Assembly: GCF_053078305.1 (NCBI RefSeq) | Contig: NZ_CP166879.1 | Reading direction: 5' to 3' (one strand) | Length of the DNA: 64,000 bases | In this document: positions 17,240-17,545 of the stretch, one piece after another | Position numbering within the stretch: position 1 is the stretch's first letter | How the letters are laid out: the number at the start of each line of letters is the position of its first letter | The notes under the pieces: model-generated | Told to the model about the DNA's origin: nothing | The model's input: only the letters and a program-made list of their open reading frames with translations | Database searches by the model: none | Translations under genes and position numbers: made by a program

Positions 17240-17315
17240 GGGGCTATAGCTCAGCTGGGAGAGCGCTTGCATGGCATGCAAGAGGTCAGCGGTTCGATCC
17301 CGCTTAGCTCCACCA
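17240..17315 (+). tRNA. tRNA-Ala (anticodon GGC), copy 1
   Basis: GGGGCTATAGCTCAGCTGGGAGAGCGCTTGCATGGCATGCAAGAGGTCAGCGGTTCGATCCCGCTTAGCTCCACCA. Confidence 0.95.
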
Positions 17316-17354
17316 AATTTTGCACCCAGCAAATTTGGTACGTAAACGCATCGT

Positions 17355-17430
17355 GGGGCTATAGCTCAGCTGGGAGAGCGCTTGCATGGCATGCAAGAGG
17401 TCAGCGGTTCGATCCCGCTTAGCTCCACCA
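17355..17430 (+). tRNA. tRNA-Ala (anticodon GGC), copy 2
   Basis: Identical 76-nt sequence 115 bp downstream of copy 1. Confidence 0.95.
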
Positions 17431-17469
17431 AATTTTGCACCCAGCAAATTTGGTACGTAAACGCATCGT

Positions 17470-17545
17470 GGGGCTATAGCTCAGCTGGGAGAGCGCTTGC
17501 ATGGCATGCAAGAGGTCAGCGGTTCGATCCCGCTTAGCTCCACCA
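17470..17545 (+). tRNA. tRNA-Ala (anticodon GGC), copy 3
   Basis: Identical 76-nt sequence 115 bp downstream of copy 2. Confidence 0.95.

What the first reader, a model, noticed from the sequence alone, without database searches (positions are those of the whole stretch)
17240..17545. Three identical tandem tRNA-Ala(GGC) genes with a 115-bp period
Three 76-nt tRNA-Ala(GGC) genes are arranged with identical 39-bp spacers (starts at 17240, 17355, 17470). The K-12 reference, as I recall, has two at this locus. This looks like copy-number expansion by unequal crossing-over within the array.
Basis: partly seen in the sequence, partly recalled or inferred. Interest (0 to 1): 0.3.

Follow-up and report, generated by a model that had tools for sequence, protein, structure and literature searches.

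The report
Extra copy in alaWX tRNA array
This E. coli strain carries three instead of the usual two identical alanine-tRNA genes in a row, a rare but already documented and recurrent copy-number variant of an ordinary tRNA operon.

Summary
Three 76-nt tRNA-Ala(GGC) genes lie at 17240, 17355 and 17470, separated by two identical 39-bp spacers. They sit between one strong sigma-70-type promoter match and one terminator-like hairpin, at the E. coli alaWX locus (yfeC on one side, pdeA on the other). K-12 MG1655 has two copies here.

Among 5,426 complete E. coli genomes, about 96.6% have two copies, 137 (2.5%) have one, 48 (0.9%) have three and one has four.

Three-copy arrays occur on at least six flanking haplotypes and with four spacer alleles. 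Each genome has duplicated its own spacer allele, so the gains are recurrent and local. Strain XH990 (two copies) is identical to the window over 4.1 kb except for exactly one 115-bp unit.

The best reading is a recent gain of one unit by misalignment between the two identical repeats, through unequal sister exchange or replication slippage. Sequence cannot tell these apart. The expected effect is a modest rise in tRNA-Ala(GGC) dosage.

An assembly artefact cannot be excluded without reads (about 10%); some public three-copy assemblies are demonstrably misassembled.

The kind is known and the interest is low.

The parts
17179..17207 (+). Promoter-like site of the tRNA operon: TTGACA, 17-nt spacer, TATGAT, followed by a G+C-rich stretch (GCCGCCCG)
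   Evidence: Consensus scan gives 11 of 12 hexamer matches. It lies 33 nt upstream of the first tRNA. Function is inferred, not shown.
17240..17315 (+). tRNA-Ala(GGC) gene, copy 1 (76 nt, encoded CCA, G3:U70 pair)
   Evidence: ARAGORN; Rfam RF00005 at 63 bits; identical to K-12 alaW/alaX.
17316..17354 (+). Spacer 1 (39 bp), allele A (AAATTT...CGCATCGT)
17355..17430 (+). tRNA-Ala(GGC) gene, copy 2, identical to copy 1
17431..17469 (+). Spacer 2 (39 bp), identical to spacer 1
17470..17545 (+). tRNA-Ala(GGC) gene, copy 3, identical to copies 1 and 2
17553..17586 (+). Intrinsic-terminator-like hairpin (10 pairs, 6 G-C, 4-nt loop) followed by a T-run; marks the end of the operon
   Evidence: Terminator scan. 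The hairpin appears in both the minimum-energy and centroid folds of the transcript.

Best explanation
This is the ordinary E. coli alaWX tRNA-Ala(GGC) operon carrying one extra 115-bp unit (a 76-bp gene plus a 39-bp spacer). In a two-copy ancestor, the two genes form direct repeats that are identical over 81 bp (76 bp plus AATTT) and start 115 bp apart. Misaligned pairing between copy 1 and copy 2 adds or removes exactly one unit. This can happen between sister chromosomes (unequal exchange) or between the nascent and template strands (replication slippage). The window carries the gain product, and it is recent, because both spacers are identical and close relatives have two copies. All three genes lie between one promoter and one terminator, so they are presumably co-transcribed and cut into three identical mature tRNAs by the usual tRNA-processing enzymes. 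That should give roughly 1.5-fold gene dosage for the tRNA that reads GCC and GCU alanine codons. Shown here: the structure, its rarity, its recurrence and the exact one-unit difference. Inferred: the molecular pathway, co-transcription and the dosage effect.
For: The structure is exact. One promoter-like site (11 of 12 matches) and one terminator-like hairpin bracket the array. The locus is syntenic with K-12 alaXW, which has two copies. A 154-bp spacer-tRNA-spacer probe, which needs at least three copies, is covered at 80% or more in only 50 of 5,426 genomes. A 269-bp probe shows 48 chromosomes with exactly three copies and one (GABEEC10) with four. A synthetic one-copy junction is found in 137 genomes. 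Four spacer alleles occur among multi-copy genomes, and within each genome every spacer is identical. The arrays sit on at least six flanking haplotypes, and the window's haplotype differs from all the others by at least 11 sites. XH990 (two copies) has no substitutions against the window over 15661-19761 and a single 115-bp gap. The nearest 24-kb relative, OZ197100, has two copies and the same gene order. ETEC4068 and ETEC4075 share an identical three-copy array with the same two substitutions in copy 1, so the three-copy state is inherited and not merely an assembly accident. [quoted passage not shown]
Against: No reads are available, so the copy number in this particular assembly is unverified. 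Some public three-copy records are clearly unreliable: XL10-gold CP081008 is chimeric at this locus, and pZ0117EC0005-3 is a frameshift-ridden duplicate of the chromosomal region. Because the copies are identical, neither a breakpoint nor the pathway (RecA-dependent or slippage) can be read from the sequence. Co-transcription, processing and higher tRNA levels were not measured.
Confidence: 0.85

Rival explanations
1. Assembly artefact: the strain really has two copies, and the assembler or polisher added one 115-bp unit.
For: Four lab-strain assemblies with neighbouring accession numbers show three copies (XL10-gold, BL21(DE3) CP081489, BL21-RIPL, Rosetta2), whereas more than 20 other B-lineage genomes and MG1655/W3110 have two. 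The XL10-gold record is visibly chimeric at this locus. The internal unit (154 bp including both spacers) is longer than many short reads.
Against: Repeat collapse, the usual short-read error, lowers copy number rather than raising it. The same allele occurs in about 44 other independent complete genomes from many laboratories and is shared by two clonal ETEC isolates together with a private mutation. The window's period is exact and its flanks are clean.
Confidence: 0.1
2. The three-copy state was inherited or imported: either it is ancestral and others lost a copy, or it arrived by homologous recombination from a three-copy donor, rather than arising in this lineage.
For: Spacer allele A is shared with other three-copy genomes (O55:H7, O157:H7, EC9952, ETEC4068), and the window is a recombination mosaic.
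Against: All sampled three-copy genomes differ from the window by at least 11 sites in 1.1 kb of flank. A two-copy genome, XH990, is identical over 4.1 kb. Three-copy alleles are scattered, rare (0.9%) and found on at least six haplotypes. No Escherichia species representative has three exact copies. Identical spacers point to a young duplication; the old Edwardsiella arrays have diverged spacers.
Confidence: 0.03
3. Selected amplification: the extra copy was favoured because the strain benefits from more tRNA-Ala(GGC), for example during fast growth or from GCC-rich highly expressed or acquired genes. This concerns the cause of retention and is compatible with the same mutational origin.
For: tRNA gene copy number affects the tRNA pool and fitness in a nutrient-dependent way in E. 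coli (PMC9981150). Duplications that raise tRNA gene dosage are readily selected in Pseudomonas fluorescens (PMC7661048 and PMC10954465). Other Enterobacterales carry three or four copies at the syntenic locus, with diverged spacers in Edwardsiella indicating old arrays.
Against: Three-copy alleles are rare, are not obviously tied to one host or lineage, and are outnumbered about 2.8 to 1 by one-copy alleles. In the ETEC clone, one of the three copies carries G53A and C69T, which suggests relaxed constraint. This pattern fits mutation and drift around a favoured two-copy state.
Confidence: 0.07

Closest known systems
E. coli K-12 alaWX (alaW-alaX) tRNA-Ala(GGC) operon
   Same: Identical 76-nt tRNA sequence, same 39-bp spacer length and 115-bp period, and same neighbours (pdeA on one side; yfeC-yfeD-gltX-valUXY-lysV on the other).
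   Different: K-12 has two genes and the window has three. The spacer differs at one base (K-12 AAACTT, window AAATTT).
Three-copy alaWX alleles already in public complete genomes (e.g. O55:H7 DEC5A, O157:H7 Z1834, 14EC017, EC9952)
   Same: The array is 100% identical (three genes, two allele-A spacers, 311-bp span) and is annotated as tRNA-Ala x3 in RefSeq.
   Different: The flanking haplotypes differ (at least 11 differences in 1.1 kb), so these are independent events and not the same lineage.
Four-copy tRNA-Ala(GGC) arrays of Edwardsiella and the three-copy array in a Serratia marcescens representative genome
   Same: Same exact tRNA sequence, tandem head-to-tail arrangement, and nearby tRNA-Val genes as at the E. 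coli locus (plus tRNA-Lys in two of the Edwardsiella loci).
   Different: In Edwardsiella the spacers have diverged in sequence and length (46-56 bp), so those arrays are old. The Serratia spacers are identical (45 bp). These are other species with unrelated spacer sequences.
Experimentally observed tandem duplications that raise tRNA gene copy number in Pseudomonas fluorescens SBW25 (PMC7661048, PMC10954465)
   Same: Gene dosage of a tRNA rises through spontaneous tandem duplication, and such variants arise and are lost frequently.
   Different: Both papers describe those duplications as large-scale, and they were selected after deletion of a tRNA gene. Here the unit is 115 bp inside an existing array, and no selection is shown.
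Comparative analysis of tRNA gene gain and loss among E. coli and Shigella genomes (Withers, Wernisch and dos Reis 2006, RNA 12:933; cited from my own knowledge and from reference lists; the paper was not held)
   Same: Cited by PMC7661048 as phylogenetic evidence that bacterial tRNA gene sets change by loss, gain (duplication or horizontal transfer) and anticodon switching.
   Different: I could not read it, so I cannot say whether it lists alaWX specifically.

Membership tests
tRNA-Ala(GGC), alaW/alaX type | Cloverleaf tRNA recognised by tRNA models | tested here: met
   ARAGORN; Rfam RF00005 at 63 bits against a gathering score of 29, for each copy.
tRNA-Ala(GGC), alaW/alaX type | Anticodon GGC at positions 34-36 | tested here: met
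   ARAGORN reports anticodon ggc at position 34 for all three copies.
tRNA-Ala(GGC), alaW/alaX type | G3:U70 wobble pair in the acceptor stem (the main alanyl-tRNA synthetase identity element; established knowledge), A73, and an encoded CCA end | tested here: met
   Direct reading of the sequence: 5' GGGGCTA pairs with TAGCTCC 3'; position 3 is G and position 70 is T; the gene ends in A-CCA.
tRNA-Ala(GGC), alaW/alaX type | Sequence identity and synteny with K-12 alaW/alaX | tested here: met
   The exact 76-nt sequence is found twice in the MG1655 locus, with the same neighbours.
tRNA-Ala(GGC), alaW/alaX type | Expression, processing and aminoacylation of all three copies | not testable with these tools
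   Needs tRNA sequencing or a Northern blot. Only the promoter-like and terminator-like sites were found.
Tandem-repeat copy-number variant produced by misalignment (unequal exchange or slippage) | Head-to-tail repeats with an integral number of identical units | tested here: met
   Period 115, 100% matches, no indels.
Tandem-repeat copy-number variant produced by misalignment (unequal exchange or slippage) | Differs from the common allele by whole units only, with unchanged flanks | tested here: met
   Against XH990: no substitutions over 15661-19761 and one 115-bp gap.
Tandem-repeat copy-number variant produced by misalignment (unequal exchange or slippage) | Both gain and loss alleles exist in the population | tested here: met
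   Of 5,426 genomes, 137 have one copy, 48 have three and one has four.
Tandem-repeat copy-number variant produced by misalignment (unequal exchange or slippage) | Recurrent on independent genetic backgrounds, each duplicating its own allele | tested here: met
   Four spacer alleles and at least six flanking haplotypes; spacers are identical within each genome.
Tandem-repeat copy-number variant produced by misalignment (unequal exchange or slippage) | Pathway: RecA-dependent crossing-over versus RecA-independent slippage | not testable with these tools
   The copies are identical, so no breakpoint exists. Gain and loss rates would have to be measured in recA+ and recA- strains.
Mobile or horizontally acquired tRNA gene cluster (considered) | Association with a phage, island or integrase, or foreign tRNA sequences | tested here: not met
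   The tRNA is identical to the core alaW/alaX gene, sits in a conserved core-gene context, and has no mobile-element gene between yfeC and pdeA.

The most novel reading that the evidence does not exclude
The alaWX array might act as a fast, reversible dosage switch. Frequent one-unit gains and losses (states of 1, 2, 3 and 4 copies all exist in nature) would let E. coli lineages tune tRNA-Ala(GGC) supply to growth conditions, with selection rather than drift deciding which state persists in a given niche.
Probability: 0.06. Interest if true: 0.4.

Novelty: already known. Interest (0 to 1): 0.1.

Why it matters
It matters little. The extra gene probably raises the supply of one alanine tRNA modestly. 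Copy-number change in tandem tRNA arrays is a recognised route of tRNA gene-set evolution. The exact three-copy array is already annotated in dozens of public E. coli genomes.

Two practical points follow. First, the locus is a small natural example of tandem-repeat instability, with copy-number states of 1, 2, 3 and 4 at about 2.5%, 96.6%, 0.9% and 0.02% of genomes. Second, it is a useful assembly quality check, because some 'complete' genomes show artefactual states here.

Tried and rejected
- **901-bp probe.** This probe, with flanks, could not count copy number. BLAST pieces from two-copy genomes were joined to 100% coverage. I replaced it with junction-specific probes.
- **Full three-gene pattern.** A shortened pattern worked.
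- **W3110 single-copy lead.** A table in PMC4678842 lists only alaW for W3110, suggesting one copy. The RefSeq record has two.
- **Withers et al. 2006.** The paper could not be read because it is not held.
- **Whole-transcript fold.** Folding the 377-nt transcript was uninformative for the tRNAs because the repeats pair with each other. Only the terminator hairpin is usable.
- **Same-strain search.** I looked for the same strain among complete genomes to cross-check its copy number. The best matches were 99.3% and 99.7%, to different genomes, so the strain is not in the collection.
- **'Plasmid-borne' three-copy array.** The record pZ0117EC0005-3 is a frameshift-ridden duplicate of the chromosomal region, not a plasmid locus.
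- **ORF on the minus strand at 17419-17814.** This 131-aa mechanical ORF overlaps the tRNA genes and the start of pdeA. It has no support and I disregarded it.

Full report
**Observation**

The window holds three tRNA-Ala genes with anticodon GGC at 17240-17315, 17355-17430 and 17470-17545 on the + strand (ARAGORN). Each scores 63 bits on Rfam RF00005 against a gathering score of 29. Tandem Repeats Finder reports a 115-bp period, 2.7 copies, 100% matches and no indels over 17240-17550. A script confirms that the three 76-nt genes are identical and that both 39-bp spacers are AATTTTGCACCCAGCAAATTTGGTACGTAAACGCATCGT.

Read directly from the sequence, the tRNA has the G3:U70 acceptor-stem pair that alanyl-tRNA synthetase recognises (established knowledge), A73 and an encoded CCA end.

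**Anatomy and context**

- A near-consensus sigma-70 promoter match lies at 17179-17207: TTGACA, 17 nt, TATGAT, 11 of 12 matches. A G+C-rich stretch follows it.
- A terminator-like hairpin with a T-run lies at 17553-17586. It also appears in the folds.
- The three genes therefore sit in what looks like one transcription unit. Co-transcription and processing are inferred, not shown.
- The neighbours are yfeC and yfeD (minus strand), gltX, the valU-valX-valY-lysV cluster (14143-14540, minus strand) and pdeA (17693-19942).
- This is the K-12 alaXW locus, where MG1655 has exactly two genes, alaX and alaW, also 115 bp apart. W3110 also has two.

**How common is each copy number?**

A probe with long flanks was useless, because two-copy genomes still gave 100% coverage after pieces were joined. 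I therefore used three junction-specific probes against 5,426 complete E. coli genomes.

| Probe | What it detects | Result |
|---|---|---|
| Spacer-tRNA-spacer, 154 bp | Three or more copies | Covered at 80% or more in 50 genomes |
| Spacer-tRNA-spacer-tRNA-spacer, 269 bp | Separates three from four copies | 48 chromosomes span 311 bp (exactly three copies); GABEEC10 has four |
| Left flank-tRNA-right flank, 156 bp (synthetic) | One copy | Found in 137 genomes, including three EDL933 assemblies, Xuzhou21, KO11FL and K-12 derivatives MC1061 and OV2 |

By subtraction, about 5,240 genomes (96.6%) have two copies. The full spectrum is:

| Copies | Genomes | Share |
|---|---|---|
| 1 | 137 | 2.5% |
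| 2 | about 5,240 | 96.6% |
| 3 | 48 | 0.9% |
| 4 | 1 | 0.02% |

**One origin or many?**

I fetched eleven three-copy loci, the four-copy locus and K-12.

- Four spacer alleles occur among them. In every genome, all spacers are identical to each other and to that lineage's own allele.
- Over 520 bp of left flank and 600 bp of right flank, the multi-copy arrays sit on at least six haplotypes. These range from K-12-like to haplotypes about 45-50 differences away.
- The window's haplotype differs from every other multi-copy genome by at least 11 sites.

The gains are therefore recurrent, local duplications of the resident unit, not one inherited allele.

**The window's own event**

- Its closest relatives over 24 kb (OZ197100 and PapRG-06-5, 99.3% identity) have two copies and the same gene order.
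- Strain XH990, with two copies, has no substitutions against the window from 15661 to 19761 (4.1 kb). The only difference is one 115-bp gap.
- The window allele is therefore a two-copy allele plus exactly one tRNA-plus-spacer unit, and the event is young.
- The strain itself is not in the collection. Different parts of the window match different genomes best, at 99.3-99.7%.

**Mechanism**

In a two-copy array the genes are direct repeats that are identical over 81 bp (76 bp plus the shared AATTT) and start 115 bp apart. Misalignment of copy 1 with copy 2 produces a three-copy product and a one-copy product. Both classes are seen in nature.

Established work on short tandem repeats in E. coli shows that both RecA-dependent unequal sister exchange and RecA-independent replication slippage act on repeats of this size (my own knowledge: Lovett and colleagues).

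One-copy alleles outnumber three-copy alleles 2.8 to 1. This is compatible with a deletion bias, with selection differences, or with repeat collapse in some assemblies.

**Consequence**

An extra gene inside the same promoter-terminator unit should raise tRNA-Ala(GGC) output. In E. coli, tRNA gene copy number shapes the tRNA pool more strongly than regulation does, with nutrient-dependent costs and benefits (PMC9981150).

Nothing here shows that the third copy is beneficial. Three-copy alleles are rare and scattered across hosts and lineages. In the ETEC4068/ETEC4075 clone, one of the three copies carries G53A and C69T. G53A breaks the conserved G53:C61 pair, and C69T turns G4:C69 into G4:U69. 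This suggests relaxed constraint. The same clone shows that the three-copy state is stably inherited: its two 3,311-bp loci are identical.

**Other species**

A scan of about 100,000 species-representative genomes for three exact tandem copies found only four.

- Three Edwardsiella species have four copies, with diverged spacers of 46-56 bp. These are old arrays.
- One Serratia marcescens representative has three copies with identical 45-bp spacers, so that array is young.
- No Escherichia representative matched.

The locus therefore settles at different copy numbers in different Enterobacterales. That is ordinary tRNA gene-set evolution as described in the literature (PMC7661048 and PMC10954465; Withers et al. 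2006 is cited there but was not held).

**Artefact risk**

Without reads, the copy number in this particular assembly cannot be verified. The risk is real.

- XL10-gold, BL21(DE3) CP081489, BL21-RIPL and Rosetta2 have neighbouring accession numbers and all show three copies.
- The reference K-12 genomes and more than 20 B-lineage genomes show two.
- The XL10-gold record is chimeric at this very locus: the segment from pdeA through the three tRNA-Ala genes, yfeC, yfeD and gltX to a single tRNA-Val is embedded among partial O-antigen genes.
- A 50-kb 'plasmid' with three copies is a frameshift-ridden duplicate of the chromosome.

Against this, about 44 other independent genomes and the ETEC clone support three copies as a real biological state. 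I put the artefact reading at about 10%.

**Verdict**

This is a rare but already catalogued allele of a well-known tRNA operon, produced by a well-known kind of repeat instability. Novelty: already known. Interest: about 0.1.

Noticed in passing
window 13682-14140 (beside lysV at 14143-14218): K-12 has xapR-xapB-xapA-yfeN next to lysV. The window instead has a 113-aa FlxA-like ORF (13682-14023, minus strand) directly followed by yfeR, as in OZ197100. XH990 has yet another, non-homologous sequence here, with an annotated RtT-like sRNA. This is a variable spot next to a tRNA gene.
   Followed up: partly
L006 and L018, 1501-1576 (ETEC4068, ETEC4075): The first gene of their three-copy array carries G53A (breaking the conserved G53:C61 pair) and C69T (G4:U69, next to the G3:U70 identity pair). 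Both strains share it, and their 3,311-bp loci are identical. It may be a decaying redundant copy.
   Followed up: partly
L019 (XL10-gold CP081008, 4552000-4560500): The pdeA, tRNA-Ala x3, yfeCD, gltX and single tRNA-Val segment is embedded between partial rfbB/IS4 and partial glf/wzy/wbbI genes. This looks like a chimeric assembly labelled as a complete genome. Three BL21-derived assemblies with neighbouring accession numbers also show three copies, and their assemblies are shorter than the reference BL21(DE3) record.
   Followed up: partly
L021 (pZ0117EC0005-3, CP098226, 17515-29826): This 50-kb 'plasmid' record carries xapR, valUXY-lysV, gltX, yfeCD, three tRNA-Ala genes and pdeA. Nearly all of the protein-coding genes are frameshifted. 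It looks like an unpolished duplicate contig of the chromosome rather than a plasmid.
   Followed up: partly
L004, L005, L006, L018, positions 1-487: O55:H7 DEC5A, O157:H7 Z1834 and the ETEC4068/4075 clone have an insQ/TnpB (RNA-guided endonuclease family) gene in place of gltX directly upstream of yfeD. The window and K-12 do not.
   Followed up: no
L016 3715-4528 and L017 1603-2429 (Edwardsiella): The neighbouring Val/Lys tRNA cluster is also expanded in Edwardsiella: six tRNA-Val(UAC) plus one tRNA-Lys, against three plus one in E. coli. Both arrays at this locus have therefore grown in that genus.
   Followed up: no
one search hit list (E. coli genomes): One-copy alleles appear in laboratory K-12 derivatives MC1061 and OV2 and in three separate EDL933 assemblies. 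MG1655, W3110 and O157:H7 Sakai have two (Sakai per the table in PMC4678842). This reflects either loss on laboratory time scales or repeat collapse in assembly.
   Followed up: no
window 5000-60000: No complete genome matches the whole window closely. The best match is 99.3% for 5000-29000 (OZ197100, PapRG-06-5) and 99.7% for 36000-60000, to a different set of strains. This suggests a recombination mosaic or an under-sampled lineage. Genes annotated under the best matches to the second part include cscA (sucrose), dsdA, evgS, emrY and oxc.
   Followed up: no
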